A DNA stretch of 64,000 bases. It comes from Antedon mediterranea (Eukaryota > Animalia > Echinodermata). The notes under the pieces were generated by a model. The model was not told the DNA's origin. It ran no database searches and worked only from the letters and a program-made list of their open reading frames with translations. The stretch spans positions 13,826,001-13,890,000 of the forward strand of contig NC_092671.1 in assembly GCF_964355755.1 (NCBI RefSeq), given 5' to 3'. Below, piece after piece: positions 843 to 41,089 of this stretch; the stretch's first letter is position 1; every line of letters begins with the position of its first letter. The position numbers were made by a program, and so were the translations under genes.

Positions 843-3800
843 CTGTTTCACAGAAGGGTCCAGTGAAACATGATGGACATGTACATGTGTAAGCAGTACA
901 GGAACCAGCAACAGTGTTACAAGCAGCTCCATTCTGACAAACGTTATTATCACAAGCATTTGCTGAATTGAATGAATGAATGTCATTGGGATGTTATTAA
1001 CAACAAACAAAATAAAGTTAACCATTTAAACATGCATTAAATAAGATAACATAATAATATTCTGTGTCTTAATGTAGTTGGATGTTGGATAACTTAAATC
1101 AAAGTACAGTAGTAAGTAATCAAATGCTGTAATTCATAATTGTATAAAGTATAGGTACTAAAATAAAGTAATTAGCTGATAATCAGGTTTATTTCAAGAT
1201 TGGATATCGCAACTACAAAAACGTCTAAAAAATGGATAAACATGCATATTGCCTTTTTCTTCTTTACAGTTTGTATTCAAATAATTGACAGGTTTTCATA
1301 ATTTTGGTTAAAATATTATCACACAATACATTAAAGACATACATTCACATTCATACACAGACATTTTTTAATAGCTCATTAAGTACAAAAGATATACTGT
1401 AAACATTGCAATTATTAACCAAAACTAAGCGTTATGCTTTTTATCACTTTATTAATGGGAACACCCAAGCAAAGTTATGGGTTTTTGGGGTTTTATACTG
1501 AAAATGTATTACTTACTCAAAAGAATATTGGATAGCCTTATAGGGTTTATAAACTTACTGGTTTCACAGAATCTTCCAGTGTAGCATGACGGACATGTGC
1601 AGGTGAAAGTATGACAAAAAGGTCCAGCAACATCGTTACAAACACCTCCATTCTGACAAAGGTCATCACTACAACTAATAATTACTGAAATATCAAATAT
1701 TTGTAAACATTAGTAAAGTATTTTATAATATGATGTTACTGTTGTTTATTATTGCAAAAGAGTTATTTTATTATTAATTAGGCCAAATAAATAACAAGCA
1801 ATGTTTCATCACCTACGAGTGATGCTATCAGTATGCAGACATGGTTCTTAAAATACAATATTCTACATGTCATTTAAATACTATAGTAATAATATGTCCA
1901 GCTGAATGTTGTTTCAGAATTTATTTATTTCATACATAAGCACTGTTTAATCATGGAGCTATAAATTCATGGCTTAACAGTTGCTGTTGCTGAGTGGGCA
2001 GGTCAAATGTGCATGCTACAATCAGTGTGGCCAAAGATTTAAAAAAAACACAAATTACTCCATTTTCATGTATTCTGCCATTTTGTGAAATTTAAAGTGT
2101 GTGCATGATTATCAGAATAAGTTTTGGAATAAGCTTTTAAAATCATTGGCCATGAATTTGACATACCTTTTCATTAAGTAAAAAAGAAATTACAAAATAC
2201 AAATATATTAATATATTTTAATTAATTATGCTATAAATGTTATATATTTTATTACAGTCAGTCAACTATCTGAGTTTCACATGTGGCGACTTAACACTGT
2301 GATCGTACTAATTTCAGGCAATCTGGGATTCGGCAAATCTTTTTAACTTACATGTTTGACAGAATATTTCAGTGTAACATCCGTAACAGGTACATGTGTA
2401 AGCAGTACAAGAACCAGCAACTGGGACACAAACAGCTCCATTTTGACAAGCATGATTGTTACAAGCATTCACAGCTGTAATATTGAATAAGTATGGTCAA
2501 ATTATTTATCAATAAAATAGTTTTTGTACACACTGTTGAGCTAATAGTTTTGTATTGCAATGTATATATTTAGTTGTTTTTTTTGTTTCATTTTAAAATG
2601 ATTAACTTATTTTTTGTGGGTAATTTAATATTTTTTAGATTAAATCTGATGACACATTAACCATTTAATAGTGCATATTTCTATAGTATTAAACTTAATA
2701 AGCTTGAAATAAAATAATGTTACAATACTTCATTTAAAACTTACCTGTTTCACAGAATGATCCAGAGAAACATGATGGACATGTACAAGTGTAAGCAGTA
2801 CAGGAACCAGCAACAGGGTTACAAGCAGCTCCATTCTGACAAAGGTTACCACTGCAAGCAATCACAGCTGTAATATTGAATAAGCATGGTGAAATTATTT
2901 ATCATACAATTAACATGTACATTCTGAAATAACTACACAAGTTTTTGTACACACTGTTGAGCTACTAGTTTTGTAATAAAATGCATATATTTAGTTTTGT
3001 TTGCTTTATTTAAAATGATTAAACTTATTTTTTGTGACTAATTTTCTATTTTTTTAAGATTAAGATTTTAATTGAACTAAATTAAATTGTTATTATTAAA
3101 TGTTGCAAAGCAAAACCCAAGACATGAGAATGCGGTATAAGTACTATAACAGGTTTTTAAATCTGTAACATTATATCAATATTTTACTTTTTAAACCAGT
3201 TTGAATAAGACTGCAATAAATAACTCAAAATATTGTAGAAAAAAAAGAAATCTATTTATGACATTATATTTGTTATCATAATAAATCCATTGTATATTGC
3301 AATCCAAATAGACTGCTGTGACCATATGTTGCTAATACAAAGTTAATGTTAACACTAATATTTAATAGCACACATTTCTATAGTATTAAACATAATAAGC
3401 CTGAAATAAAAAGATGTTACATGAACCAATAACAGTGTTACAAGCACCACCATTTTGACAAATGTTATTACTACAAGCATTCACACCTGTAATATTGAAT
3501 AAGTATGGTGAAATTATATATCAATAAAATTAACATGAACATATTGAAACAATAGTGTATTGTATTGTATTGTGTATATTTAGTTTTTTTTTTGGCTAAT
3601 TTTTTATTTTTTAAATAAATCTGATGATAAATTAACCAATTGAACTAAATTTAATTGGTATTAAATTAAATATTGCAAAGCAAAACTAGGATTTTGATGG
3701 GCATCAACAAACCTTTGTAATATACAAATACTAAACAAACGTATACTAAGTACAGTATTATAGAACATCATTCTCTTTTCCATATTTTGAACCTTTCAAT

Positions 3801-6800
3801 AATGTGTTGTACAACTCATAGAGGTACTCATGTTGGATTTCTTAATAACATTCTTAATCAATTATCATAGCAAACTTTCATTTGTTGGTTTTTTTTGTAG
3901 ATTGCAATATTTGCTTTAATTTTAAAGATGTATTGTCCCTTGAAACACAAAGAATGAAGGTTAAAATATTCGAAATTTAAATTGGCCATATCAAAGTAAT
4001 ATTAAAGTTATTCACTTTGAGTCGAAAATTCAAGCCAAAAACAACAAGTTTACGTAATTAACAGGTAAATTAATTTGATTACATTTCGTCTGGAAAATCG
4101 TCGCGAAAGAAAGTAAACAAAGATTTCAAACCACGAGTATGCATTATGCACATGATGCTAATTAGGATTGTTTACAACTCGTCACGGTTGAGAAGGTGTT
4201 CTCACACAGATCGCAAGGAAGTTTTATGATTATGCATACAGAGTAGCCAAACAAGCATGTTGCATTATGAGATATGTTTTGATCAAGTTTTTTTTTTAAA
4301 CTAAGCTATATGATTTTTGTCACTATATTAATGGGAACACCCAAGCAATATAAATCTATATATTTATGTATTAGGAATTCATTCACATGACAATCTTGTT
4401 CAAGGACAAACATATACACAAGATGCTTCACCAAAATAATCTTGGGAGTGGAACTGTTGATTAAATTATTTATGATAACAAAATAAATAAAACCTATAAA
4501 GCCTAGATAATGCAACCGGGACACAAGAAGCTCTATTTTGACAGGCATGATTGGTACAAGCATTTGCTGAATTAAATAAAATGAATATCATTGGGATGTT
4601 ATAAGCAATCAAATAGTGTGAATGTTATAAACATTATAAAGTGTATTAATCTTTAATCATATTTAAACATACATTAAATAAGAAACATATTACTAAAAAA
4701 ATATATGATAATGATCTATATCTTAATGGAGTTGGACGTTGGATTACATCAAAGTACAGAAGCAATCAAATGTCATAATTCAATATATAATAGTGCGCAT
4801 TTCTATATTAACTATATTATGTTACAATGCTTTATTTAAAACTTACCTGTTTCACAGAATGATCCAGAGAAACATGATGGACATGTACAAGTGTAAGCAG
4901 TACAGGAACCAGCAACAGGGTTACAAGCAGCTCCATTCTGACAAAGGTTACCACTGCAAGCAATCACAGCTGTAATATTGAATAAGTATGGTGAAATTAT
5001 TTATCAATTAAATTAACATGAACATACTGAAACAACAAAAACTGTTGTACACACTGTTGAGCTACTAGTTTTGTAATAAAATGTGTATATTTAGTTTTGT
5101 TTGCTTTATTTAATTATTTATTTTTTGTGAGGAATTTTCTATTTTTTTAAGATTAAGATTTTAATTGAACTAAATTAAATTGTTATTATTAAATGTTACA
5201 AAGCAAAACCCAAGACATGAGAATGCGGTATAAGTACTATAACAGGTTTTTAAATCTGTAACATTAAATCAATATTTTACTTTTTAAACCAGTTTGAATA
5301 AGACTGCAATAAATAACTCAAAATATTGTAGAAAAAAAAAGAAATCTATTTATGACATTATATTTGTTATCATAATAAATCCATTGTATATTGCAATCCA
5401 AATAGACTCCTGTGACCATATGTTGCTAATACAAAGTTAATGTTAACACTAATATTTAATAGCACACATTTCTATAGTATTAAACATAATAAGCCTGAAA
5501 TAAAAAGATGTTACATGAACCAATAACAGTGTTACAAGCACCACCATTTTGACAAATGTTATTACTACAAGCATTCACACCTGTAATATTGAATAAGTAT
5601 GGTGAAATTATTTATCAATAAAATAGTTTGTGTACACACTGTTGAGCTACTAGTTCTATTGCAATGTATATATTTAGTTTTTTTTGCTTCATTTAAAATG
5701 ATTAATTTATTTTTTGTGGGTAATTTTCTATTTTTCAAATTAAATCTGATGACACATTAACCAATTGAACTAAATATAATCGTTATTGAATTAAATGTTG
5801 CAAAGCAAAACTATGATTTTGACAGGTATCAACAAACATTGAAATATAAAAATAGTAAACAAACCTACTGTACAGGTACTAAGTACAGTTATTATACAAC
5901 AAAATTCTCTTTTCCATGTTAAACCGTTCAATAATGAATTATCATAGCAAACTTTCATTTGTTATTATTTTTCATATTTAATTTTTGTAGATTGCATATT
6001 TGCTTTAATTTCAAAGTGTTGTGACCAAATGTAGCTCATACAAAGTTAATGTTAACACTAACATTTAATAGTGCAGATTTCTATAGTATTAAGCATAATA
6101 AGCTTGAAACAAAATAATATTGAATGGTGAAATTATTTATCAATAAAATTAACATGAACATACTGAAACAACTAAACACATATTTGTACACTCACTGTTG
6201 AGCTACTAGTTTTGTATTACAGTGTGTATATTTAGTTTTTTGTGGCTAATTTTCTATTTTTTTAGACTAAATCCGACGATACATTAACCAATTGAACTAA
6301 ATTTAATTGTTATTGATTTTAATGTTGCAAAGCAAAAATAGAATTTTCTAGGTATCAACTAACATTGTAATATAAAAATAGCAAACAAACCTACTGTACA
6401 GGTACTAAGTACAGTATTATACAATATCATTCTCTTTTCCATATTTTAAACCTTTCAATAATGTGTTGTACACTTGTACAACTCATATAGGTATAGTAGC
6501 CTACTCATGTTGGCTTTCTTAATATTCTTAATCAATTATCATAGCAAATTTTCATTTGTTGATTTATTTTTCATAGTATTTTTGTTTTGGTAGATTGCAA
6601 TATTTGCTTTAATTTTAAATGTTGTGACCAAATGTAGTTCATACAAAATTAATAATGCACATTTCTATAATATTAAACATAATAAGCTTGAAATAAAATA
6701 ATGTTACAATACTTCATTTAAAACTTACCTGTTTCACAGAAGGGTCCAGTGAAACATGATGGACATGTACATGTGTAAGCAGTACAGGAACCAGCAACAG

Positions 6801-9800
6801 TGTTACAAGCAGCTCCATTCTGACAAACGTTATTATCACAAGCATTTGCTGAATTGAATGAATGAATGTCATTGGGATGTTATTAACAACAAACAAAATA
6901 AAGTTAACCATTTAAACATGCATTAAATAAGATAACATAATAATATTCTGTGTCTTAATGTAGTTGGATGTTGGATAACTTAAATCAAAGTACAGTAGTA
7001 AGTAATCAAATGCTGTAATTCATAATTGTATAAAGTATAGGTACTAAAATAAAGTAATTAGCTGATAATCAGGTTTATTTCAAGATTGGATATCGCAACT
7101 ACAAAAACGTCTAAAAAATGGATAAACATGCATATTGCCTTTTTCTTCTTTACAGTTTGTATTCAAATAATTGACAGGTTTTCATAATTTTGGTTAAAAT
7201 ATTATCACACAATACATTAAAGACATACATTCACATTCATACACAGACATTTTTTAATAGCTCATTAAGTACAAAAGATATACTGTAAACATTGCAATTA
7301 TTAACCAAAACTAAGCGTTATGCTTTTTATCACTTTATTAATGGGAACACCCAAGCAAAGTTATGGGTTTTTGGGGTTTTATACTGAAAATGTATTACTT
7401 ACTCAAAAGAATATTGGATAGCCTTATAGGGTTTATAAACTTACTGGTTTCACAGAATCTTCCAGTGTAGCATGACGGACATGTGCAGGTGAAAGTATGA
7501 CAAAAAGGTCCAGCAACATCGTTACAAACACCTCCATTCTGACAAAGGTCATCACTACAACTAATAATTACTGAAATATCAAATATTTGTAAACATTAGT
7601 AAAGTATTTTATAATATGATGTTACTGTTGTTTATTATTGCAAAAGAGTTATTTTATTATTAATTAGGCCAAATAAATAACAAGCAATGTTTCATCACCT
7701 ACGAGTGATGCTATCAGTATGCAGACATAGTTCTTAAAATACAATATTCTACATGTCATTTAAATAATACTAATAATATGTCCAGCTGAATGTTGTTCAG
7801 AATTTATTTATTTCATACATTAGCACTGTTTAATCATGGAGCTATAAATTCATGGCTTAACAGTTGCTGTTGCTGAGTGGGCAGGTCAAATGTGCATGCT
7901 ACAATCAGTGTGGCCATGAATTTGACATACCTTTTCATTAAGTAAAAAAGAAATTACAAAATACAAATATATTAATATAATAATTTTAATTAATTATGCT
8001 ATAAATGTTATATATTTTATTACAGTCAGTCAACTATCTGAGTTTCACATGTGGCGACTTAACACTGTGATCGTACTAATTTCAGGCAATCTGGGATTCG
8101 GCAAATCTTTTTAACTTACATGTTTGACAGAATATTTCAGTGTAACATCCGTAACAGGTACATGTGTAAGCAGTACAAGAACCAGCAACTGGGACACAAA
8201 CAGCTCCATTTTGACAAGCATGATTGTTACAAGCATTCACAGCTGTAATATTGAATAAGTATGGTCAAATTATTTATCAATAAAATAGTTTTTGTACACA
8301 CTGTTGAGCTAATAGTTTTGTATTGCAATGTATATATTTAGTTGTTTTTTTTGTTTCATTTTAAAATGATTAACTTATTTTTTGTGGGTAATTTAATATT
8401 TTTTAGATTAAATCTGATGACACATTAACCATTTAATAGTGCATATTTCTATAGTATTAAACTTAATAAGCTTGAAATAAAATAATGTTACAATACTTCA
8501 TTTAAAACTTACCGGTTTCACAGAATGTTCCAGAAAAACATGTTGGACATATACATATGTAAGCAGTACAGGAACCAGTAACAGGGTTACAAGCAGCTCC
8601 ATTCTGACAAAGGTTACCACTACAAGCATTCACAGCTGTAATATTGAATAAGTATGGTGAAATTATTTATCAATAAAATAGTTTTGTATACAATGTTGAG
8701 CAAATAGTTTTGTATTACAGTGTGTACATTTAGTTTTTTTTGTTTCAAAATGATTAAACTTATTTTTTTAGATTAAATCTGATAACGCATTAACCAATTA
8801 ACTAAATTTAATTGTTATTGAATTAAATTTTGCAAAGAAAAATTAGGATTTTGATGGCATCAATAAACATTGTAATACAAAAATAGCAAACAAACCTACT
8901 GTACAGGTACTAAGTACAGTATTATACAATATCATTCTCTTTTCCATATTTTAAACCTTTCAATAATGTGTTGTACACTTATGCAACTCATATAGGTATA
9001 GTAGCCTGCTCATGTTGGTTTTCTTAATAATATTAATTATTAATTATCATAGCAAACTTTCATTTGTTGATCTATTTTTCAAATGTATTTTTTTTTTTTG
9101 TAGATTGCAATATTTGCTTTAATTTAAAATGTTGTGACCAAATGTAGCTCATACAAAGTTAATGTTAACACTAACATTTAATAGCACACTTTTCTATAAT
9201 ATTAAACATAATAAGCTGGAAATAAAATAATGTTATAATTAGCTTCATTTAAAACTTACCTGTTTGACAGAATGATCCAGAAGCACATGATGGACATGTA
9301 CAAGTGTAAGCAGTACAGGAACCAGTAACAGGGTTACAAGCACCTCCATTCTGACACTGGTTATTATCACACGCATTTAATACTAAATTATAAATAAACA
9401 TTCTTTGAACTATTTAAACTGATTTGAAAGAATAAAATGCATTTTTTCGATCTAATTGAAGGTCACAAACTACATTTTATACAAAAATATATACTATGAT
9501 TTAATGATTTTGGGGAGAAAAGATAGAGGGCGGGAGATGAGCAGGCAAAGTTGGAAAGGAGGAGAAGCAGAGAACAGATGTGTAAATAAAAAGGAGAGAC
9601 ATTAGAGAGATAGGAAAACAAAGTGTTCAATAGAAAACTGGTTGAGATACAGTTTAGCCAGTGGTTACACCTACTGGTTGTGATACTGTTTAGCCAGTGG
9701 TTATCGCCTACGGTTTGAGATACAGTTTAGGCAATGGTTACGCCTACTGGTTGTGATACAGTTGTTGGTGGTTACGTTGTGGTGGCGGTTATGCAGTTAT

Positions 9801-12800
9801 TGGTGGATACGCCGTTGTTGGTGGTTACGTTGTTGGTGGTTACGCGGTTATTGGTGGTTACGCGGTTATTGGTGGTTACGCCGTTACTGGTGGTTACGCT
9901 GATATTGGTGGTTACGCTGCACGGCGTAAGATTAACACTAATCCTAATTCATAATTATCAGTTGTTACTTATAATTTGGAATCAAAGAAAGAATAAAGGA
10001 GGCCACTCCAAAAGTTGTAATTGTCATTGATTTATCTCTTTTGTTCGAGTGTATAACAGCAACCGCAGACTTCCCCGCAGGGGACGAAACCCATAGCTCA
10101 ATTTCGTTACATTGGTGGCAGCGGTGGGATTGGTCGTTTTGCGGAAGAAATCAGTCACACAATGGAACAATTGCAAGAGTCATTAGATGTCGTGAGGTGG
10201 TTTCCCGAATGATCGTAAAATCAAAACGGTACTGGGTATGACCAACTAGCGTTATTGTCACCGACTAGTCATCCATTCATAGAAGTACTGATGTAGTAGC
10301 CTACCTGTACGGTGACCATAGAATGTGACCCGAGGCATGACTAACTACGACTTTTAGTTGATAGAAGATTGAAAAACTGGTTAAGAAGAGTTGTACTGTA
10401 TGTGGATGTTTAATGAAATTATGTCAATAATGTTTACACACTAAGCATATAAATAGTAATGTTTGTTAGTAAAAATAATTTTGAGTTAATAAGAATAAGA
10501 TATAAGGAAGAAAAGCAAAGAGACTATGGAGCGGCTATTCCTGAATATACAATACTAAGTATCGTAGATTTAAATTATAAATTTTAGGCGATCTTGTCAA
10601 AGGTCAAGCGCCTATAGCCTGCCACGTTTCGATATTCAATATTGAATAATTAATTAAAAATTTACCTTAAAATGGTTTTGAACTGAACCGGTGGATGTCT
10701 TGTCGTTGTATGGTTTTAGTTTAAAATACTATATGTTCGATATTAGTGCGTGTGCGTAATAGAATGAAAGAGGGGGATAAACCGACTGGAGAACGAGGTA
10801 ACAAACATGGACTCGGCACAGCCGTTAAGTTCCGGTATTGGACATAGCTCCCGGCCACATGGAAGTATCGGACGTACGCCTTTAGAGAGAGATAGTTCGA
10901 AATAGAGGGCGGAGGAAATCGATAGTCTGGAGATATTAGGATCCCCTGTTGGACAGTTGACAGGAAAGAGAAGGTAGCGGCCAACCGAAGTGGACGCCTT
11001 TACTCCGCCCTGGATAATCGGAGCGGAAGCGATGCAGAAGAGGTTTGGAAAGAACCTCCGATGCCAGAAGCCAATCATACACCCCGACAGGTTTGAAGGA
11101 AAGGTGCCTTGGAGAGATTATCTTCAACATTTTCGGGCCTGCGTGGGGGCGAACGGATGGACGGAGGAACAAGTCGGGGCGTTCCTCAAAGTCAGCCTAA
11201 AATGAACAGCCTTGAAGGTACTGGCTGTGGCTCCATCCGAGAGTTATCCTACCTGGCATACCCGGAATTTCCTGAAGCAGGAGTAGAGCGGCTGGCAAAA
11301 GGACACTTTAGTGATGTCGTGAGGAGAGCGGAGATTAGAGAAGGAATTTTGAAAGTGGCTCTGACCACACTGGATGATGCCATCAGAGCAGCGCTATCCA
11401 CGGACAGTTTCCTCAAGCTTGAGGAGCAACGGAACCCATGAGCACCCCCGAAATACCTACGGCCGATCACAAACGAGCCTCGTCAAAGGCAGGACGATTT
11501 TGAAGAAAGAATGGAGAGATGGATAGCACGGGTAGAGGCACGCATGCTGCCCCACTCAACAGAACAGCAGACGACGAGGAGGCGGGATAAACAATGGGAA
11601 ACCAGAGAAGAAAGACAGGAGAGGGTGCGTAGGAGTGTCTGTTATAATTGCCAACAGAAGGGCCATCTCGCCAGACAGCTGTGCCGAAACTGAGCGACAG
11701 ACTGGGGAAAAGAGCAGCCGATTCAAGGGGTTGAGAGGAGGCTGGAAGAGATCGAAGGCCAAGTGAACCAAAGAGAAAGAGGAACTACTCCTCTACACAA
11801 ACAATAAACCACACCTTCATCCAGACAGTAAGCCAACGTGTAAAAACAGAATACTCCAAATACCACCCTAGCAAAGGTCTATACGTAGGATCAGCCACTG
11901 TTAACGGGACGAAAACAACACTATTGGTTGATACTGGAGCGTCAGATACAGTCCTGTCATCCCGATTGTACTACGAAATACCAACGGAACGCCGACCCAA
12001 GCTCAAACGGGATTCTCGAGAATGCCAACAAGCAGACGACAGTCGCTTAAACACTATAGGACGTACCTGGGTAGGGTTACAAGTTGGCCACACTTTTAGG
12101 GTGACGGAAGTAGGGTTTGCAGATTTAAAAATCTCGGGAGTACTTGGGAGGAATTATCTACTAGGCACAGGAGCGGCACTAGACCTTTGTAGGCTACAAA
12201 TGAAGGTGGATGGAGAGGTGATCGAACTGCTAGGATCTGATGAGACCTGGTATCTGCAGACCAGGTCGAAACTCATGCCCTTCATCCGGAGGATCCTGAG
12301 CCCAGACAGCGACCTTTCCCAGAACACCTGGTGGACCTTTTAAGCCGAAGCGTAACCGCTTTAGAGCCGCAATACCACAGGCAGGTGGCGTCTTTACTAG
12401 CTAGGTTCAAAGACGTCTTCTCGGAAGGAGATTTGGACCTGGGAAGGACGGATAAAGTAAAATACCACATTGACGTTGGAACTTCTCGGCCTGTCAAGGA
12501 ACAGCCAAGACACCAGGCGGCAGACGCCAGCAAGGAGATAGAACGTCAGGTCGGGGACTTATTAGAGAGAGGACTTATCGAACATTCCGACAGCCCGTGG
12601 GTGTCAAACGTCGTATTGGTCACTAAGAAAGACGGCACCAAGTGGTTCTGTGTGAACTACCAGCGGCTGAATTCAGTTACGATCAAAGACGCTTACCCAA
12701 TCCCTAGCATCAACGACTTCTTAGATGCGCTTTCGAACAGCCGGGTTAAAATTAAAGCCCAAGAAGTGCACCTTATTTAAATAGTAGGTCTCGTACCTTG

Positions 12801-18800: not shown

Positions 18801-21800
18801 TGATTTTACAGGCGTGTTTCTCGCACACTGTTCGCGAATTTCACTTATTCAATGTTCAATATTTTTGTTTCTATGGAGCGCCAAAAGAGCAACGATAATA
18901 GAGGACTAAAACTCAGTGGAATGCGTCAATTTCTCATGCATTTATTGGTGAAAAACACGTTTTATTTCAATATATTTGTTGAATTTGTCAATAAAAATGC
19001 TGTAATATGTTACTGCTGATACTGTTCTGTTTTCAAAGAATAATAATCGATCCTAAATCAACATCACTACCTAGTCTAGACCTAGGACATCCTACTAAGG
19101 ATATTATGATGAATTTTTCTATTTTATTCTTTAAAAGGTTACCGAAACCGTGTACATTATCAACAGTACACCGGTGAACAGGGGTGTGTAGAAAGCGACG
19201 ACCTCGAATTGGACGACCCCAACGACCCGGGCGACCTCGAATTGAACGACCTCGAATTGAACGACCCATAACACGAAATCGACGACCCCTATAGCCTAGC
19301 CTAGCCTAGGCCTAAGTGTGGTATAACATCCCGAAGCCGAACATAGCCAAAGATCTTTAAACTATACCTGGATCAACTGCCGTTTTGGCTCCGGAGTTTT
19401 TTTTAGGGTTATTCCATTATTAAAGTGGGGTGTGTGGTTTTGAATATTGTGTGCAGGTACGTCAATAGAAATGACATTGAGACCCCTCTTCTGTCAGCAG
19501 TTGACTGGTTCCCGGTCTACCGCCTTGTAATTGACTTAATCATGATCGAATTCCAACAACTTAAGAATATACAAAATGTTTACATAATTATATAACAATG
19601 TAGATCTATCTAATAATGTTTTTATTTTTTCGCAGATAAAGGAGGATCATCAATAAAATAATTCCAGGCATTTAATATACGGTTTACTGATAAAATATAA
19701 TGTACCAATGAAATAAACCTGGTGTTCTGAAACATAACTTTTGCCGGCCTAGCGCCTTCGTGTATCTAAATCTATCTAAATAATTAAGTTAGTACAGTAT
19801 TAACAAATAAAGGGTTAGGGTTATGTATAATAAAATGATAGAAATGAGGTATTATCTAATAATGTTTTTATTGATTTTTTTTCCAGATTTTTATAGTTTT
19901 AAAATTCAAGTACCGTTTTTATAGCGTTATGTATCCTGTAAATGCTAACCTAAAAACGTTATCTGAATGTTTCTTTTTACGTTATAGAAATGTAATAAAA
20001 TAACGGTTATTAGTGAACCTAAACATTAACCAAACACTAACATTAGAAAACCACTATGTGTTTGCTGGACTGCCACAATGGAACAATAGACCTAGGTATG
20101 TTAAACAAAGAAATCACATCAAAGCAGGGTGGAGACGGAATTTTAAGACAAAGGCGTTCTATACAAATGCAAATCATTCATGTATACTTGTTACAAATTT
20201 TGTTTAGTTTCTTTATTAAAAGATTTTGATATGCTGTTATATATAAATATTCTAATACATAGAATAGCAAAATTATCATAATACATAGGATAGCAAAAAA
20301 TAAACCAAACATAACAACAACAAAATTAAATTGACAATGTATTTTTATTTAGAAATTCATTTCAATAATATAAATATTTTTTATTAAATTACATCATTAT
20401 TTACTTACAATTAATTAATTAATTAACTTACATTACAGTAACTGAATAAATGGTACATAAAATTACTAAATAATTGCACATAAAATGCAGGTTATAATAA
20501 AGACATAAGTATACATATAATGGTACAGGTTATAAATATTTAAATTACGCTTTTTAAATGTAATTATAATAATTAATGATGAGAACACTTACGGTTACGA
20601 GTAGACATGTACATTGGTACATTACAGTACGAGCAATCCTTGGCAGTTGGATAAAAACCCCTTCGTTGGAAAAAGTCCAGATAGTCATCAAATCCATTAA
20701 ACAAATGTGGTCCTATCTTCGGCAGCATGGTCCTTGGTTTAAATCGCAGTAAAATCAAATCGAGAACGCAGTAAAATATCGGAGTTGTATAATATAGTTG
20801 AACATTTTTCGAAAAATGAGTGATTTGAAGACAACTGATCTTGGTTTATATACATGTGCCATATTTTAGTTTGTATACATAGCTCCATGTCGGCATGAGT
20901 GATATTGTTATAATATGCTTTATTATGTAATATTGTAAGCTTCAATGAGACACCTTTGTGCAGCGATAAAAAAAAAGTAAAACTATGCTACAGCGGTTTT
21001 TGTTTCTTCACCTGATTACATATATTTTATTAATATTTATTCTTCCCAACCATTTTTTTTTAAACTCAAAATTTGAAACACTACCGTTTAGCTTTTTCAT
21101 TCAAATTGAAGATTGAATTTAATGAAATTTTATGTACTGTACTGTTTAACAAATCAACATAACGGTACAATAGGTTATGATTATTTCAAACCAAAATAGC
21201 TAGGTTTTTAAGGACTGATTTATCTTTAAAAAAACGCCTAGAAATAAAAGAGAGAGAGAGAATAGCAATTACGTGTTGGAATAATACAGTAGTAACGGTA
21301 CAATATATAATCATTTTGGTAAAGAAAATCGAATACTAGGTTTTTTAAGGTCTGATTAAACCCAAGTGTGACGTCGTCTGGAAGCAGGAATTTAATATTC
21401 ATAATTAGGTGATCATTTAGAATAAAAATGATCACCTATTGTTATTGTATCAAATCTTTATTGGTTATCCGCAACGAAGTTGCTGATAACCTCTTGTGAT
21501 TGTACGAAATCATCATCAACATCAACTTTTTATTTCTCTTCTTTCTTTCTGTATGATTTTTGTGCAACGCTTTTCTCTGAAACTTGCAAACATAACATTT
21601 TGTGAACTATGTTAACATTTTTACATTTATGTAACGTCGTCAAGCGAAGCTTATATTAATTCATATAAAAATTAAGCCTATCGGATGTTGTGACGTTACC
21701 GTATGGCCAGTTGAAGTTAAAAAGTATTTTTTTCATCGCTTTCGTAAAAGTTATACAATTTTTAAATAGCGCGCACCGCCCTTCTACGTGCCAAATTTTC

Positions 21801-24800
21801 TTCCAATTGTTATATTTTATTACTCAATTCATTATCTTTCGATATTGTTATCTTCAAGTTTATTTTGACAACGTCATCATACCAAAAAATTTGAACATGA
21901 TGTGGGTCCCGTAATTTCACCTATGCTACACTGTATATAGATATACACAGTACAGTATATACTGTACATATTGTATATGGCATATAATAGGCACAACTCA
22001 GCACTATAAGCGTATAATAGGATGGCATACATCAACATTTTCCGATTGTATGTTAACGTAGGTGCATGTTTAAAAAATATGAATGTCAATAAAATGATAA
22101 AAATGATCACCTATAATTCGTCAAAGTGACGAATTAAATTCTAGTTACAAGTTGTACTTGGATATCAAACTGTCTATTTGGTCGTCTTGAGCCTCAAGAG
22201 AATAGCAACTATGTATGAGCTGTAATAAACAGTAAGTACAGTATAGAAATCATATATCGACTAGCATTAAAATTACAAGTGGGAGTCTGTAGTACAGTGA
22301 ACAATTTCATTTCAAAATTTTAGCAAAATTGCTAATCAAACTGATTTAGTCGAGAAACATAGTTTTGTATTGTATTTTTGCTACACAATTTTCGAAATGT
22401 GTAGCAATAAGGTTGTTTTGTATAGCTTTTTGCTATGCCACACTGGCGAAATTATTCCTTGTAGTAGATAAAAGAGACGTTCAAAACAGGTTAAAAAAGA
22501 AAATCATAGTACGGTTATTATTGTACAGTATATTAATTAAACAAGCTGAACATTTTATATAGTGATTTAATACGCAAATAATGTTTCTACATTTTTTTTA
22601 CTGCAGAGTTTACGTGAATTTCTGTCAGCATTGATCATGTTGTATTCCACCACCAGATTTGCATTTGTATAGAACGCCTTTGTCTTAAAATTCCGTCTCC
22701 ACCCTGCTTTGACGTGATTTCTTTGTTTAACATACCTAGGTCTATTGTTCTATTGTGGCAGTCCAGCAATCACATAGTGGTTTTCTAACGTTAGTGTTTG
22801 GTTAATGTTTAGGTTCACTAATAACCGTTATTTTATTACATTTCTATAACGTAAAAAGAAACATTCAGATAACGTATTTAGGTTAGCATTTACAGGATAC
22901 ATAACGCTATAAAAACGGTACTTGAATTTTAAAACTATAAAAATCTGAAAAAAAAATAAATAAAAACATTATTAGATAATGCCTCATTTCTATCATTTTA
23001 TTATACATAACCCTAACCCTTTATTTGTTAATACTGTACTAACTTAATTATTTAGATAGATTTAGATACACAAAGGCGCTAGGCCGGCAAAAGTTATTAA
23101 AATATGTTTCAGAACACCAGGTTTATTTCATTGGTACATTATATTTTATCAGTAAACCGTATATTAAATGCCTGGAATTTTTATCATTTTATTTTATTGA
23201 TGATCCTCCTTTATCTGCAAAAAAGTAAAAACATTATTAGATAGGTCTACATTGTTATATAATTATGTAAACATTTTGTATATTCTTAAGTTATTGGAAT
23301 TCGATCATGATTAAGTCAATTACAAGGCGGTAGACCGGGAACCAGTCAACTGACAGAAGAGGGCTCTCAATGTCATTTCTATTGACGTACCTGCACACAA
23401 TATTCATAACCACACACCCCCACTTTAATAATGGAATAACCCTAAAAAAAACTCCGGAGCCAAAACGGCAGTTGATCCACGAAAAGATATGGAACGCCAA
23501 GAGTGCATCATTAAAACTGCATTCGACATATTAAAAATAAATTAAAAAGAAATAAATATTATACAATACATGGTTAAACCATGGACGTATAATTACATCT
23601 CGTCTTCTTATAACGAACACTATAGGCCTACCAAGCAGCGTAACATGTGCATTGGGGGATATGACCGGTTGGGCCGCCGACAAGTTGAGCCGCCGGTAAT
23701 TTCTATGAAATGGCCAGTGCGTCTTTTACGACATTTCGCGTAGTGATAGAGTGGTGTCCTAGTAGGCCCTACATAAGTTCATGGTCTTTAGGTTTATTGT
23801 GTCATGAAAATAAATAATAATTACATACTACAATTTTGTTGGTTTGAAACAGCAAAGGAAAGTAGTCATATTTAATAATTTAATTGTTTTTAATCTTTCA
23901 AGGTAAAAATGCAGTGCACTCCATAATATTTTCTCGCGTGTATGCCTACACGTAAAATCACGTTGTCTCTCAGGACTAATAGAGTATTGATATTCTTCGA
24001 ATGAGGTTAAATAATAATTATTTTTTATTTACTATCTTTTATTATCATATTTTATTGAATTTTACAATGTTAATACACAAAATATTTTACAAAAAAACGG
24101 TGATTTTATGCAATTATTTTACTTCAACTGCCGCCTGAGGGGGCAACATGTTTACGTCATTTTTGGCTAAAAACGATCATTTTGTTTTAGGCCTTATATT
24201 TTGGAATATACAAGTCAGATATTCATAATTATTTCTCTTTAATTATATTATTTAATAATATATACTAAAAACCGTGATATATAAACTTTGGAATATACAT
24301 CGTTATATCTAATAATTAATATAAATAGAACTTCTATTAAATAGAAACGAGCACCGGCGAAAGTAAGCATTTGGCGTTTCATAGAAAATAACGTTTTTCT
24401 GGCGGCGCCTCAACTTGTCGGCGGCTCAACTTGGCCTAATCCTGCATGGGGAGGGCCATAAGAAAGCTTTACATTTCACACATGCATTGTATACGGTCAA
24501 ACCATGGAGGTATAAAAATATTTTTACCAAACCATGGAGCTGGTCAAACCATGGAGGTAAAATATACCTCCATGGTCAAACCTTACCTGCCGCTGAAAAA
24601 GGGGCCTGGTTTGCCATGTTTATGATATTTCGTGTGCTAATCGAGTCGAATGCAGTTTTAATGATGCACTCTTGGCGTTCCATATCTGTTCGTTTGTTCG
24701 TGTCGACACATTCAGTATCAAATGGCGATATTTCTGTATTTTTTCAATCAATTGCTTGCTTGAATTGCGAGTATTATATAAGGTATGGTTTAAAGATCTT

Positions 24801-27800
24801 TGGTTATGTTCGGCTTCGGGATGTTATACCATACTTAGGCCTAGGCTAGGCTAGGCTATTATAGGGGTCGTCGGTTTCGTGTAATGGGTCGTCCAATTCT
24901 AGGTCGTCCAATTCGAGGTCGCCCGGGTCGTTGGGGTCGTCCAATTCGAGGTCGTCGCTTTCTACACACCCCGGTGAACAGTAACATTTTTCTTTACTGA
25001 CAGTGACAAAATCTATTGAAATTGTACTTGATTTTCACCAAATAATGCGTTAAATATAAATGGATTCCACAGAGTTTTTAGCCCTCTAATTAATTTTGCT
25101 CTTTTGGCGTTCCATAGAAACCAAAATATTGAACATTGAGTGTGCGAAATGCGAGAAAAACAACGTCTGTAAAATCACCAATTTAATGGATTTATTGTTA
25201 CTTTTATGTGATTTTTCTTCATTAAAGTAGGCCTACTAATTCTAAGCTGTGGTATTCAGGATAAAGTTGGTTAAAATACAAGGCAGGTGCAAAAGGAAAC
25301 TAGCCTAGCGGGCCTAGGCCTAGGCTACTTCAATTTCGGTGATTTCCTGCCTTGCAATTTTGAGAAATGATAAAATGATGCCTCGCATTTTTTGATGATG
25401 GTAAAACGATGCCTCGCATAAATTTCTGACTTGCCTCGCATGCCTTCCCTGCCTCGCGTGCCTCGCTGCCTCGCACTTTGTTACTACCCATTGGGAACCC
25501 TGTTAGATCAAGACAAAACTTTGCGCTGATTACTAGCTGCATATATGGGAGTATGTTTCTATAAGTGTTTGATCAGGAAATGACTGGGGTAATAATGTTC
25601 AGCGCATTGAGAGCTTGCTTATATGCGCTATATAAGAATGAACTATTATTATTATTATTATACTGTTTAGCCAGTGGTTACACCTACTGTTTGAGATACA
25701 GTTTAGCCAATGGTTACGCCTACTGGTTGTGATACAGTTGTTGGTGGTTACGTTGTTGTTGGTGGTTACGCGGTTATTGGTGGATACGGCGTTGTTGGTG
25801 GTTACGTTGTTGGTGGTTACGCTGATATTGGTGGTTACGCTGCACGGGTAAGTCCACGGCGTAAGATTAACACTAATCCTAATTCATAATTATTGGTTGT
25901 TACTTATAATTTGGAATCAAAGAAAGAATAAAGGAGGCCACTCAAAAAGTTGTAATTGTCATTGATTTATCTCTTTTGTTCGAGTGTATAACATTAACAG
26001 TAACCGCAGTCTTCCCCGCAGGGGACGAAACCCAGAGCGCAATTTCGTTACAATATTCTGCCAAAAAAGACAAACAATTATTTCAGACAATGCCAGGCTA
26101 GACCTATTAGCTAGCGTACAATATTCGTACAATACCACTGTTTACCAGATAGGAAGACAGTATACATTCAATGTACTACTACTTAGGTTGTTTTTCTCTT
26201 TTTATCATAATTTACCATAACTAGATGGTACGCTCGCTTCGCTCGCGTACCATCTAGATCGTGCCCACAGATGGTTCTCGAATACACAGTAATTTCAGCG
26301 TAACAAAACTGGCGATTTCCAATGTACGTACCGCAGGACTATAATACATTGTCGAAAAAAAAACCCGAATAAATAGACACGATGATTTATGTAGTCAACT
26401 AAAATTAGCACCCTGGGAATTACTTCCGAAGGAGAAACTTATCACAAAATGAGTCCAAATTTTTGATTTGGACTCATGTAAAGAAACCCAATTTGTGTTT
26501 TGTATGTAACATTAGGGTTGAGGGATGGGAAAGCGGATAGGTACAAAGAGGAACAATTTTTAAATATATTCTTTATCCACTCAGTAACGAAATATTTTTT
26601 TCATGTTTTATAGGCCTATAAATAATATACCTCTAAATACAGTAAAACATTTGCAATTTAATACTTTGTTAAAACTGTCACTGTCATAATCGATTGAAAT
26701 ATTAAAGTACATGTCACGATACACCACTACGACGTTTATATTTTTGGTAATTATTAATTAATACAAACGTTGAGAAGGAACTGCCAGTATAAAGTTTATT
26801 TGTATATAATAATGTGTTTATATATCTAACAGTAGAGCCTATCCACAATCTCAGTAATAAAGTTTATTTGTATATATTTTTATATTACATCTAACAGTAC
26901 GAACATTCACAGTAAGAAATTTTCGATTCAAATGAGGACCAAAAATAGTTTATTTTATTTTATTTTATAGGTATTTACAGTATTGTCAAAGTATTGCAAG
27001 TTTATTCTCAAAGGGCCCATATATTTACCTACCGTATGTGTTAAACCAAGGTCTCATAAATTTACCTACTTGTGTTCAGCCGCGTAACAAGGGGGTCTTG
27101 TCAGGGGGGGGGGGGGCAAAGAGGGGCTGATCCCTTGCAGACACCAAGTATTTGAGCCACAGCCCCCCCCCCCCCCCCCATTGTGGGGGCTGTGGCGAAG
27201 CGAATTTTGGTAAATGACACCCCTAGATCGTCGGAAATGGTACTCTTGCACATAAAATTCATGATAAATGGCGCCTCGCCAACTAGTAGTAGTTGGCCTG
27301 GAAATAACACTCTCATTTATTGCACAGCAATCAGCAAAATGATCGTACATTTTCCACCGTTAAAAACACAGGTGACATAACATTTGAACATGTGAAAACC
27401 CAATCTAACATTGGATCCGCACCTGGCAAAGGTAGTAATTTTTCCGGTTAGAAGACTGAAACAGGGCCGTAACCAGGTTTGACGGCGGGGTGGATCGTTA
27501 AGTTGTTTAGTGGAACCATACCCTCGAATTTTTTTTTTCTCTATAGGCCTATGTATGGCCGCAAATCGCATTTCCGGCTAATCTCTTTTGTTTATGAACT
27601 ATATAATTTGGTGTAATTTCCAGCCCACGAATTTCAATTGCCGACCTTATTGCCGACCTTAAATTGTCAGAGGACGGCATTCTCTTGCCGACCGAAACTA
27701 GGCTAGATCCCTGCTCCCTTTAAGCCTCCTAGCAACAACATGGTACATTAAGGGATCGTATCATTGAGACTTTAACAGGCATATTCACCATCATGTGGTG

Positions 27801-30800
27801 TTTAGGTAACAAACCATGGAATTAAGATGATCCCTGAATTCACTCAACCATTGCATCTTGCACTTGCGTGAGCTGCATCCTTTCTCTCTAGCAGCGCAGC
27901 TGACTGGGCACGTCACACGCACGCAGATACCTGTGTTAGGGGAATACCCTTTTATGTCAAGCAAACAACTATGCTCTGTGTACGGCTAGCTCCAGAACCA
28001 CGATGTTCAGCAGTTATCAAATAGAATTTATCTTGTAAATTTAGTGTTAGGTTTTTATATTTTAGTTAAAATATACTTTATATTCTTATGTCGATTTATA
28101 TTAATTAAATTTATTAAGGCTTGACTAGGCCTGTAGTAAACAATCGTAGTGTTGTGTTAGTATGCCCAGCAAAAAAAAAGTGGGAGGACAAGCGGAACTC
28201 GCTGTTCAGCGGGGGTACGATCCCCCCGATCCCCCCTGGTTACGGGCCTGTGAAAGATTGAGTATTGGAGCGACAGCCAGCCACGAAAGTACGTTCGTTT
28301 TGCTGATCGCTAGAGCGTTACATACGATTAGTAGGAGTGTATTTTTTTAAGGTGGCCTCACACGCACAGCACAGCGTCACAATTGTGTATGAGATGCCCG
28401 CGATGGCGGCTTAAAAGACGCCAAAAACCACAGTCAACTGACCGCATGTTAATGTACTGATAAGCAGTGCGTCTTCCCACGAGTTGTCAGTCAGGATTTT
28501 GTGTATTTCATATCATCTTACTTGAATATCATACTGTACACTACTGTGACTCATTTGAAGCCATATCATATATCGTATATTTTATTCTTATGTTATATTT
28601 TCTTTCTTTTTCATTCTTTGTATTTTATTTTATTTTTTTGACTTGTTACCCAGCCCGATCGAACGCTTCTCAACCCGGTAAAATCCGCCAGGGGAGTATT
28701 TCGCCCCCCCTGCCTCACCCCCCCCCCCCCCCGCCTGTTACGCCACTGCTTGTGTTAAACCAAACTCTGGCAGACTGAGATATTGGGATGTTCCACTCAT
28801 CGCAAATCAATACATTTGTATAATCGTATATTAAATCTATCAACATAGTATTTTTTAAAGAAAATCGGCCTGTCTTCAACATTATGATGGTGTACTCTAG
28901 CTGTTCAACCGGTTTTCAGCTATTAAAAACAATTATCGTAGGAGGAGATAGGAAAATGCGAAGCCTCCTCGCATTTTTGTGGCGGGTATTTTTCAAGATG
29001 GACATCCATTAGACAGTGTATACCACGATCGGAAAACACCCCTATTTGGGACAAATCGTTGAACCTAAATTCGTTTTAATCGTCAATAACTAATTATCTA
29101 ACTTAATTTAATTAGTAAACAGGGTTACATCAGGTGGTTAAAATCAGTACCGAAAGTACGAACCAACTTTATATACCATCGAGTAAAAATTCTAGAAGTA
29201 AGGCGCGATTTACCGAATTTTGCCCTTACGTAAATTTATATATAGAAACATACATTTAATACAAGGAATGACCTGGTTTAAAGCTTTCTGAAGTAGTATA
29301 ATGCATTTTTACAAAATTGCAGGTAAAGTGTCTTTAACTTACATGTTTCACAGAACTGTCCAGTGTAGCAATTTGGACAGCTACACGTGTAAGCAGTACA
29401 GGAACCAGAAACCTGGACACAACCAGCTCCATTTTGACAAATGTTATTATTACAAGCATTTAATACTGAAATATCAACCGGTAAATATGTTTTACTTTCT
29501 CTTGATACATTTATTTATATTGTATTTTTGTTGGGATATATATGAATATACAGCTTTTATTGGTGCATTGTTATAGTTTCATATTATACAAAAAAATTAC
29601 AGTTGCTAACAATAATTTTCAAATCAATTTTAACAAGAGCAGGTTCCAGAGAGAATTTCAGTATGAACCGGCGTTAAGCAGAATCAAGTTTTGTAGTTTA
29701 AATTATAGAGGAAATAAGTAAATTTATTTCTGTTTAGATTAATTTAAGTTGTACAGGACACAAATGTGATTACTACAAGCATTTATAATACCAATAATCT
29801 TAAGTAAAACTTGCTAGATGATATAATAATTATATTCTTCTAGGACAGCTAAAAAAATAATCTTTCTTGTAAACACATGTAGGTGTTTACACAGTTTACA
29901 GTATAATAAAAGCTAAGATATAGACTAATCTTCCTTAACACTACTTACAATTTTTAATATAAATAAAAAAATAGCCACCATTAATCATAACAATTTATGA
30001 TAATAAAATGGAAACAGAGGTGGTCTCAATATGTAAAGATTTCCAATATTTAGCGCCCAAAAATGAAAAAAAGAAATTATGAATTTACCCTAAATACTAT
30101 AACTGGGTATAATAGTCAAATTATATTCTTTAGAAGTAGAGTGATTTAATTTCTTTCACCAGCCACCTGAAAAACCTCCTTATCTTAATTACAATACATG
30201 ATGTTCTAAATATACAGAAAAAATTGCAGATTTATGGGTTAATTGGGACCTTTTTAGTAATTAAACATTGTTTTGTGAAACAGAAAAAAACCCAGAAAAA
30301 TATTAACATTCTGTTAAAAACATTGTAATAGTAGATACTTCAGATTTTGTAGGGAAGAAACAAGATATGACATACTTCATATACATTTTAAAGTGTTTCT
30401 TTTTAAACTAAACAAACCTGTTTCGCAGTTATTTCCTTCAAAGCAACTCTGACAGCTACAACTATATGAAGAACCAGAGGCAGCACAAATTCCATTATTA
30501 AGGCATGGGCTTGGCGAGCAGCGATTTACTGAAATATTAAAAGAAACACAATGCTTGTTAACAAATGTTAGCGTAAAAAAATGTACAAAACATTTGTTAT
30601 CACTATAGAAATTGTATTGTCAGGTTGTTTTACTTGCTTGTCCGAGAGAGAAACGACATGAGAACCGTCCCTGGAACTAATCGACCAAGAACTTTTGCAT
30701 GCATAGTACACAATGACCCCTTTAATGTACAATAGGACAAAAACGCACAGAAAATTATTATCAATGAATTAAATGGAACATCATTGTGATTAGCAGAACC

Positions 30801-40200: not shown

Positions 40201-41089
40201 TGAAAATTAGTTGAATACCTACGTAATGGCTATATATAGAACCCGTATGCACTGGAATTGGTTGCCATAGTATGGAATTGTTCCATGTCTGCCGGTGGTC
40301 TGGAGGGTAGAGACCAGCTAAAGTGCATTCTGCTGACATTAGGGTCCTATCCACATCTGTACTGACCACTTTCAATTGGTATCTTGAATAATCTTTACTG
40401 AGGAATCCATTGTATTTTTGTCTTAGAAACTGGCCTAGTTTATACTGCTGACGCATCCCAGTCTAAATGCAATGTAATAATAAAATGCTATAGGCTTAAT
40501 AGTTATAATAAGTAACATACATTAATGATAAGTACCGACGATGAATATATAGATCTTCTATAAAGAAGAATACGAATAATGAGGCAAAGAACGGAACTTT
40601 AGTACGTCAGTAAATGTAAAGCATATACATACCTGAGTCAATTGTCCAAATCCTTGTTCCCAAAAGTCCTCCTTATATCTGGAGTTTGGGTACGTATGCA
40701 TTGGAGATCTATCTCCATGGCGATATATCTAAATTAGTAAAATAATAATCCAGTTTCCATTACCAACATACAAATAAAAAAACAATTATAAACAATACTA
40801 TCTAACATAGTAAGCCTAAATGTATAATAACAAACTTTAGAAAAAACAATTGAAGTACTAACTGTACATTATCATCTTTAAAATATCTGTTACTGTCCTA
40901 TTCTATAATAAAGGCCAGTTATGCTTTAAGAATACAATCAAATACAGAAAATGCTTTATCTAACTATTAAAAATAAGATAAAGACAAACATAACAAAAAA
41001 AAAACACTTACCAAATTTACAAATTGCAATTCGTCGGCGTTAACTAAAATTAGCAAAATACCCGAAAAAAATAATTGCGGTAAAAACAT
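37237..41089 (-). CDS. Histidine acid phosphatase, lysosomal/prostatic (ACP2/ACP3-like), type I membrane, ~410 aa
   Basis: 10 phase-consistent exons: 41089-41012, 40728-40633, 40462-40223, 39755-39663, 39153-39061, 38900-38777, 38619-38525, 38405-38296, 38039-37864, 37364-37237. Signal peptide, [31 protein letters not shown]-terminal TM. Confidence 0.93.

What the first reader, a model, noticed from the sequence alone, without database searches (positions are those of the whole stretch)
843..30528. EGF array with a cysteine pattern suggesting disulfide staples between neighbouring domains
Seen: all 11 EGFs from 29465 to 843 have 8 Cys, the canonical six plus one in the major hairpin (always C-x4-C4, even in the variant with a 1-aa insertion) and one at C5-x-x-C, usually beside an aromatic. 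The first EGF of the array (30528-30418, CSPSPCLNNGICAASGSSYSCSCQSCFEGNNC) has only the C5+3 Cys (7 Cys), and the isolated EGF before the Kunitz has neither. Established: in Notch/fibrillin EGF pairs the C5-C6 aromatic of domain N packs on the major hairpin turn of domain N+1. Inference: the extra cysteines pair across that interface and lock the chain into a covalently stapled rod. The repeats lack the D-x-D/N-E calcium-binding prefix, so staples could replace calcium stiffening. The spacing differs from laminin-LE and integrin I-EGF 8-Cys modules.
Basis: partly seen in the sequence, partly recalled or inferred. Interest (0 to 1): 0.88.

Follow-up and report, generated by a model that had tools for sequence, protein, structure and literature searches.

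The report
Disulfide-stapled EGF rod of echinoderms
A likely feather-star gene carries a chain of EGF modules with two extra cysteines, and in related echinoderm and acorn-worm proteins these cysteines come and go in pairs across module borders, so they likely bond each module to the next and would stiffen the chain without calcium.

Summary
Observation confirmed. The minus strand holds a 15-exon, stop-free chain: signal peptide, plain EGF, Kunitz, one 7-Cys EGF, then 11 8-Cys EGFs (7 distinct), running off the window. The nearest relatives are crinoid proteins (85-95% identical).

The staple idea passed its main sequence test. Among 468 fetched EGF proteins (3910 linked module pairs), the hairpin Cys (C4-5) occurs in 112 pairs, always after a module with the C5+3 Cys, and in 0 of 3795 other pairs. 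Typical arrays start with a C5+3-only module and end with a hairpin-only one. The pairs are not independent: they come from 36 proteins, the named ones from 13 species.

The cassette spans five echinoderm classes and hemichordates, in hyalin-like, adhesion-GPCR, Kunitz and DEG/ENaC proteins. The two cysteines map to the known Notch N-to-N+1 packing interface, the calcium motif is absent (0 of 128), and an AlphaFold model resembles Notch rods.

The bond itself was not seen: no coordinates, no experiment. Ten literature searches of an open-access library found no description. Verdict: new variant of the EGF module, interdomain disulfide about 85% likely.

The parts
33759..33819 (-). Coding part of first exon, signal-peptide-like (starts at ATG, hydrophobic), phase-1 GT donor
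   Evidence: signal peptide judged by eye
33362..33475 (-). Plain 6-Cys EGF exon, neither extra Cys
   Evidence: (PF00008 E 6.7e-7)
32274..32447 (-). Kunitz-domain exon
   Evidence: (PF00014 E 1.5e-13)
30418..30528 (-). 7-Cys EGF exon with only the C5+3 Cys; predicted first module of the stapled rod
29343..29465 (-). 8-Cys EGF exon 1
   Evidence: 95% identical to a repeat of crinoid P0001
9260..9382 (-). 8-Cys EGF exon 2 (Ala instead of the aromatic after C5+3)
8513..8635 (-). 8-Cys EGF exon 3
8120..8242 (-). 8-Cys EGF exon 4 (same protein sequence as exon 9)
7445..7570 (-). 8-Cys EGF exon 5, 1-residue hairpin insertion (same as exon 10)
6729..6848 (-). 8-Cys EGF exon 6, 5-residue linker (same as exon 11)
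4847..4969 (-). 8-Cys EGF exon 7 (same as exon 8)
2745..2867 (-). 8-Cys EGF exon 8
2352..2474 (-). 8-Cys EGF exon 9
1559..1684 (-). 8-Cys EGF exon 10
843..962 (-). 8-Cys EGF exon 11; keeps C5+3 and has a GT donor, so the gene likely continues beyond the window
9383..29342 (.). Inferred 20-kb intron with retroelement remains (aspartyl protease at 11.7-12.3 kb), 36-nt tandem repeats and nested inverted repeats; no further EGF exon found in it
3410..5578 (-). Three truncated half-EGF copies (5578-5504, 4564-4511, 3484-3410) that stop at or before the hairpin Cys; a fourth short relic lies at 29786-29760

Best explanation
The gene encodes a likely secreted or surface protein of a probable crinoid whose EGF array is a variant module shared by echinoderms and hemichordates, in which the C5+3 cysteine of module N likely forms a disulfide with the hairpin cysteine (C4-5) of module N+1 and would lock the chain into a calcium-independent rod. 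Shown: the cysteine pattern, its polarity (C5+3-only module first, hairpin-only module last), its spread, and the absence of the calcium motif. From the literature: the residue at C5+4 packs on the major hairpin turn of the next module in Notch and fibrillin rods. Inferred: the extra cysteines replace the Gly before that aromatic and the hydrophobic residue it packs on, which makes the contact covalent; the hairpin is three residues longer, probably to reach the partner. The cassette likely acts as a stiff spacer that has been moved between host proteins and changed in length by exon duplication, since each module is one phase-1 exon.
For:: of 3910 linked pairs in 468 proteins, a C4-5 Cys follows a C5+3 module in 112 of 115 pairs (any hairpin Cys in 114 of 115) and follows other modules in 0 of 3795. 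None of 32 C5+3-only modules is preceded by a linked C5+3 module. Shuffle test: 138 of 142 boundaries concordant, mean 85.3, maximum 105; modules that group with 8-Cys modules but stand first lack the hairpin Cys (Amphiura P0164, P0166, P0214, where Thr, Tyr or Leu replaces it; an SH-aLRT 96 group holds three of them with two 8-Cys modules). A module that stands last in a shortened array lacks C5+3 (P0019, Phe), as does a crinoid module followed by a Thr-rich linker (P0074, Ser). Arrays of 2 to 8 modules keep the polarity in different host proteins; in 2093 canonical pairs C4-5 is V, I, L or P in 1386; C5+3 is Gly in 3859 of 4912 modules without the Cys; the aromatic four residues after C5 packs on a hydrophobic residue and Gly of the next module's hairpin; calcium prefix in 0 of 128 against 945 of 2544 plain modules; model pLDDT 91.9 with the hairpin Cys in the turn between the strands; it fits straight Notch EGF11-13 (rmsd 3.6, TM 0.69) far better than bent EGF4-7 (rmsd 16-17, TM 0.32-0.33); a contig of an RNA-like run joins one 8-Cys exon to another in frame.
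Against: No sulfur-sulfur distance and no experimental disulfide map. The model's pTM is only 0.48, and AlphaFold may draw rods by likeness to Notch. The 112 pairs come from 36 related proteins with internal duplicates, so the effective sample is much smaller. Exceptions: the last 8-Cys module of P0001 (a partial gene model) is followed by a plain EGF; P0006 ends on an 8-Cys module (a spare Cys lies seven residues further on); P0168 starts with an 8-Cys module after a HYR domain; two hairpin-only modules (P0005, P0129) follow no parsed C5+3 module. The mapping to the Notch contact residue is by counting from C4 in a hairpin that is three residues longer. dN is not far below dS among the window's copies.
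Confidence: 0.85

Rival explanations
1. The same two cysteines pair between chains (module N of one molecule with module N+1 of another), giving staggered dimers or a cross-linked mesh.
For: It predicts the same first/last polarity, so cannot exclude it. Hyalin-like hosts are matrix proteins, and inter-chain EGF disulfides are known from teneurins (recalled).
Against: The partner site in the same chain lies at the known intrachain interface. The cassette sits in single-pass, seven-pass and channel proteins with arrays of different length, which would all need matched partners.
Confidence: 0.07
2. The two extra cysteines form a fourth bond inside one module, as in laminin LE or integrin I-EGF modules, and the 7-Cys modules are decayed copies.
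For: Most modules with an extra Cys have both (104 8-Cys modules). A few isolated 8-Cys modules occur in gene models (P0030, P0052).
Against: It does not explain why C5+3-only modules stand first and hairpin-only modules last. In the EGF fold the hairpin tip and the C5-C6 loop lie at opposite ends of the module (established knowledge, not measured here).
Confidence: 0.03
3. The staple is real but fixes a bent or twisted shape, or guards against proteases and unfolding, and is not a stand-in for calcium stiffening of a straight rod.
For: The hairpin is three residues longer and O-glycosylation motifs are depleted (O-fucose 30 of 161 against 2722 of 4770; O-glucose 15 of 161 against 2129 of 4770), so the interface has been rebuilt. 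Model pTM is 0.48. Linkers range from 5 to 10 residues. This rival overlaps with the best explanation on the bond and differs on what it does.
Against: The model superposes on straight Notch arrays over three to five modules.
Confidence: 0.25
4. In this window the exons do not form one transcript: the array below 9.4 kb is a separate gene or partly dead duplicated DNA.
For: A 20-kb gap full of repeats, near-identical block duplications and four truncated copies.
Against: All 11 exons keep frame, phase and splice sites. No other first module lies in the gap. Crinoid gene model P0005 has the same order: Kunitz, 7-Cys, 8-Cys, 8-Cys. This rival concerns this locus only, not the module.
Confidence: 0.15

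Closest known systems
Notch/fibrillin-type tandem EGF and calcium-binding EGF rods (Pfam PF00008, PF07645; PDB 2vj3, 9b3n)
   Same: Six canonical cysteines, 5-6 residue linker, aromatic at C5+4, predicted fold and straight arrangement.
   Different: Two extra cysteines at the packing interface, a hairpin three residues longer, no calcium prefix, and few O-fucose or O-glucose motifs.
Integrin I-EGF and laminin LE four-disulfide modules (Wouters et al. 2005 discuss these; recalled, only its citation was seen and the paper is not held)
   Same: Eight cysteines per repeat, and a fourth bond that stiffens the junction region, which that paper, as recalled, calls inter-domain.
   Different: Different spacing; neither family was matched. 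As recalled, their fourth bond uses a cysteine at the module boundary or closes an added loop, whereas here the donor lies inside the C5-C6 loop of the previous module.
Arthropod Crumbs late EGF pair (seen; no paper found or specifically sought)
   Same: An extra Cys in the C5-C6 loop is followed by an extra hairpin Cys in the next module in 5 of 5 cases.
   Different: Other register (C5+5 with C3+4), a single junction and not an array, probably a separate origin.
Echinoderm hyalin-like HYR/EGF proteins and crinoid 'fibropellin-1-like' and 'ADGRG7-like' gene models
   Same: They carry this very cassette.
   Different: Their automatic names say nothing of the extra cysteines. The window's own C-terminus is unknown.

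Membership tests
EGF-like domain (PF00008) | Six cysteines with C4-x-C5 and C5-x8-C6 spacing | tested here: met
EGF-like domain (PF00008) | Pfam gathering score of 21.5 bits | tested here: inconclusive
   the 6-Cys and 7-Cys modules pass (29.9, 27.7). Of 7 distinct 8-Cys modules none passes; five score 14.5-17.8 and two have no PF00008 hit at E 0.1
EGF-like domain (PF00008) | EGF fold with major hairpin and minor sheet | tested here: met
   on a sea-urchin homologue (P0137 stretch), predicted model
EGF-like domain (PF00008) | Disulfides C1-C3, C2-C4, C5-C6 | not testable with these tools
   no coordinates returned
Calcium-binding EGF (PF07645) | [DN]-x-[DN]-[EQ] prefix before C1 | tested here: not met
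   0 of 13 in the window; 0 of 128 hairpin-Cys modules against 945 of 2544 plain modules
Laminin LE / integrin I-EGF four-disulfide modules | Family profile match and cysteine spacing | tested here: not met
   no laminin or integrin EGF family at E up to 0.1 for any of the window's modules; the spacing comparison is recalled
Kunitz/BPTI domain | Profile match with six cysteines | tested here: met
   51.2 bits against a cut-off of 21; inhibitor activity not tested
Adhesion GPCR (as crinoid P0001, P0011) | GPS/GAIN and seven-pass domain downstream of the array | not testable with these tools
   the gene runs off the window and no genome is held; the closest repeats are in such receptors

The most novel reading that the evidence does not exclude
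An undescribed, exon-sized, covalently stapled EGF rod arose in the ancestor of echinoderms and hemichordates and was reused as a stiff force-carrying tether on sensors: crinoid adhesion GPCRs, and hemichordate DEG/ENaC channels that gained an extra membrane pass so that the rod stands outside the cell (P0034, P0145). Staples at this interface also arose separately in arthropod Crumbs and in an annelid EGF-SEA junction, so it would be a recurring way to stiffen EGF chains.
Probability: 0.25. Interest if true: 0.82.

Novelty: new variant of a known kind. Interest (0 to 1): 0.64.

Why it matters
EGF arrays are among the commonest extracellular scaffolds, and their stiffness is usually explained by bound calcium plus a hydrophobic contact. 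A natural array that makes this contact covalent at every junction would be a third solution. It would give a template for fixing the angle between EGF modules in Notch, fibrillin or adhesion-GPCR experiments on force transmission. Odd cysteines in EGF repeats are usually read as harmful (CADASIL and Marfan variants; recalled); here odd-cysteine end modules are the rule and mark where the rod starts and stops. The cassette's presence on adhesion GPCRs, hyalin-like proteins and DEG/ENaC channels gives testable candidates for tethered mechanosensing in echinoderms and hemichordates.

Tried and rejected
Direct geometry: the structure tool returns no coordinates, so the SG-SG distance was not measured.

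No genome is held, so the gene's 3' end is unknown.

Expression: no run on record as RNA was listed. Run X1 behaves like RNA, with contigs over separate exons of the neighbouring phosphatase and transporter genes, but its listed pieces do not cover the signal-peptide, Kunitz or 7-Cys exons. This says nothing for or against their splicing. Summed depth over the 8-Cys exon is some 400 times that of its flank in three DNA-like runs of one sample; the tool states this is no copy number, so it is only a hint of many genomic copies.

A first loose regular expression called many false hairpin cysteines in Crumbs and SNED1 and was replaced. The strict parser misses modules with insertions (gaps shown). 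A relaxed parser gave the same result (121 of 122 C5+3 modules followed by a hairpin Cys) with three false parses. Fifteen isoform records (P0247-P0261) were left out of all counts. The module tree (35 columns, 237 rows) is mostly unresolved and cannot count origins. dN/dS among the window's copies is uninformative.

The profile searches were crowded by long canonical arrays and list only the best 120, so absence outside echinoderms and hemichordates is weak evidence. The ESM Atlas gave only generic EGF clusters. None of the PDB chains listed by sequence search (33 each) is from an echinoderm or hemichordate, and the three alignments printed lack both extra cysteines.

Literature: of ten full-text searches, nine looked for the module and showed no description in their listings; one was for the Notch interface. 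Passages were read in four papers; the two with 'interdomain disulfide' wording concern other proteins. Subscription papers, including the original hyalin work and Wouters 2005, could not be read, and no supplements were read. Earlier scan notes held nothing on this module.
Full report
1. What is in the window. The minus strand carries 13 EGF modules, each on its own phase-1 exon with AG and GT ends. In order: a signal-peptide-like exon (33819-33759), a plain EGF, a Kunitz domain (PF00014), a 7-Cys EGF, and 11 8-Cys EGFs down to 843. Read in that order the chain is open: 604 residues, no stop, 109 cysteines, linkers of 5-6 residues. I call the extra cysteine three residues after C5 'M' and the one five residues before C4 'H'; B has both and o neither. 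The window reads o, Kunitz, M, then B eleven times. The last visible exon keeps M and has a donor site, so the gene likely continues. The 11 B exons are 7 distinct sequences, produced by recent exon-plus-intron duplication (1-2033 equals 5887-7916 at 99.6%), with four truncated relics. A 20-kb stretch with retroelement remains separates the first B exon from the rest and holds no other EGF exon.

2. Whose gene it is. The closest proteins are from the crinoids Anneissia japonica and Antedon mediterranea, 85-95% identical per repeat, so the window is probably crinoid. Crinoid model P0005 has the same order Kunitz, M, B, B. P0001 and P0011 carry the repeats on adhesion GPCRs. Which kind this gene is cannot be told from the window.

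3. The test of the staple. If M of module N bonds with H of module N+1, arrays must begin with M, end with H, and never show H at C4-5 without an M before it. I parsed all 468 proteins returned by four searches (15 isoform records left out): 5591 modules and 3910 linked pairs. H at C4-5 follows an M module in 112 of 115 pairs; two more have a hairpin cysteine one or two places off and one has none. It follows a module without M in 0 of 3795 pairs. None of the 32 M-only modules is preceded by a linked M-bearing module. In 39 linked runs 138 of 142 boundaries are concordant; shuffling module order within runs gives a mean of 85 and a maximum of 105 in 20,000 trials. The commonest run is M-B-B-B-B-H followed by plain EGFs, and arrays range from M-H (P0191) to M-B6-H (P0034, P0145, P0147). 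Modules with insertions keep M six residues before C6, next to the aromatic.

These pairs are not independent. They come from 36 proteins, with orthologues and internal copies. The stronger argument is change at the ends. Brittle-star modules that group with B modules but stand first have Thr, Tyr or Leu at the H site (P0164, P0166, P0214). A holothurian module that stands last in a shortened array has Phe at the M site (P0019), and a crinoid module followed by a Thr-rich linker has Ser there (P0074). The tree is poorly resolved, so I do not count origins.

Exceptions: P0001, a partial model, ends B-o. P0006 ends on B, with a spare cysteine seven residues on. P0168 starts on B after a HYR domain. 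P0005 and P0129 each have an H module after a truncated EGF and a basic cleavage-like motif.

4. Range. Thirty of the 36 proteins are named, from 13 species: two crinoids, three sea urchins, two sea cucumbers, one brittle star, two sea stars and three hemichordates. Six are unnamed. Hosts include hyalin-like HYR proteins, adhesion GPCRs, Kunitz proteins, a VWA-MAM-LDLa protein, single-pass proteins and DEG/ENaC channels. No M-to-H array appeared in the named chordate, arthropod, mollusc, annelid or cnidarian proteins fetched, but those lists were cut at 120-150 hits.

5. Geometry. In Notch rods the aromatic four residues after C5 packs on the major hairpin turn of the next module (PMC4826273, passages), against a hydrophobic residue and a glycine (PMC3415683, passages). 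M is the residue just before that aromatic and is Gly in 3859 of 4912 modules lacking it. The C4-5 site is V, I, L or P in 1386 of 2093 canonical pairs. So both new cysteines fall on the known N-to-N+1 contact, by sequence register; the stapled hairpin is three residues longer (11 against 8). AlphaFold2 on a six-module sea-urchin array with 21 sequences gives pLDDT 91.9 and pTM 0.48, with H in the hairpin turn. The model fits straight Notch1 EGF11-13 (rmsd 3.6, TM 0.69) and EGF20-24 (rmsd 5.5, TM 0.60) and fits the bent EGF4-7 poorly (rmsd 16-17). This may only reflect what AlphaFold has learned, and without coordinates the bond distance is untested.

6. Calcium and sugars. The calcium prefix is missing from all 13 window modules and from 128 of 128 H-bearing modules, against 945 of 2544 plain ones. 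O-fucose and O-glucose motifs are depleted too. That the staple does the stiffening in their place is inference.

7. Expression. A contig of run X1, which behaves like RNA, joins the end of an 8-Cys exon to the start of another in frame; the linker reads ETLLNA, as in P0001. It shows that B-to-B splicing occurs in this repeat family, not that this locus is the source.

8. What is known. The nearest kinds are Notch/fibrillin EGF rods and the four-disulfide laminin and integrin modules; the window's modules match neither of the latter two nor the calcium-binding family. Nine searches for the module in an open-access library showed no description, and the solved relatives listed are ordinary EGF proteins. 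Subscription papers could not be read. Wouters et al. 2005, recalled only, treats a fourth disulfide in laminin and integrin EGFs as inter-domain, so the general idea has a precedent, though not this register or a fully stapled array.

9. Verdict. Real, well supported by comparative sequence evidence, and apparently undescribed: a new variant of the EGF module. Interdomain disulfide 0.85; straight, calcium-independent rod as its purpose about 0.6; tethered force sensing 0.25.

Noticed in passing
P0034 (Glandiceps talaboti) and P0145 (Ptychodera flava): The stapled cassette is fused to a DEG/ENaC channel: EGF rod, an extra hydrophobic segment, a cytoplasmic-like linker, the HG motif and first membrane pass, then the channel domain; P0034 also has a signal-like N-terminus and LDLa repeats. 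Seen in two species' gene models; a candidate channel with its own tether.
   Followed up: partly
P0273, P0287, P0332, P0345, P0359: Crumbs or Crumbs-like proteins (three named, all insects) have an extra Cys at C5+5 followed by a hairpin Cys at C3+4 in the next EGF, in 5 of 5 cases: a second candidate staple in another register.
   Followed up: partly
P0320 residues 997 and 1372 (annelid Lamellibrachia): Two EGFs with a lone C5+3 Cys are each followed by a non-EGF, SEA-like region and not by another EGF; the partner cysteine was not identified.
   Followed up: no
SNED1 proteins (e.g. P0003, P0004) and Notch proteins P0028, P0290, P0343: Lone hairpin cysteines: in the first EGF of SNED1, and at C3+3 in one Notch EGF with no C5+3 Cys before it.
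   Followed up: no
P0005 about 180-246 and P0129 about 85-150: A truncated EGF, a run of basic residues like a furin site, then an EGF with a lone hairpin Cys: possibly a disulfide that bridges a cleavage site.
   Followed up: no
window 5578-5504 and 3484-3410 (minus): Half-EGF copies keep the acceptor AG and end at a GT in phase 1 at the hairpin-Cys codon, so they could be spliced in as broken modules or be skipped.
   Followed up: no
window 9600-26100: Retroelement remains: aspartyl protease at 11735-12340, ORFs that look like reverse transcriptase and RNase H by eye but had no Pfam hit, similar ends near 9.7 and 25.7 kb, 36-nt tandem repeats at 15.3-16.2 kb, and nested inverted repeats between 18.8 and 25.2 kb.
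   Followed up: partly
window about 37250-40730 (minus): Multi-exon histidine acid phosphatase gene (PF00328), covered by contigs of run X1.
   Followed up: partly
window about 43000-52000 (minus): Multi-exon SLC4 bicarbonate transporter gene (PF00955).
   Followed up: partly
window 32274-32447 (minus): The Kunitz domain has an insertion before C2, Val after C2, and lacks the usual Gly-Gly before C4, so it may not be a trypsin inhibitor (usual pattern recalled).
   Followed up: no
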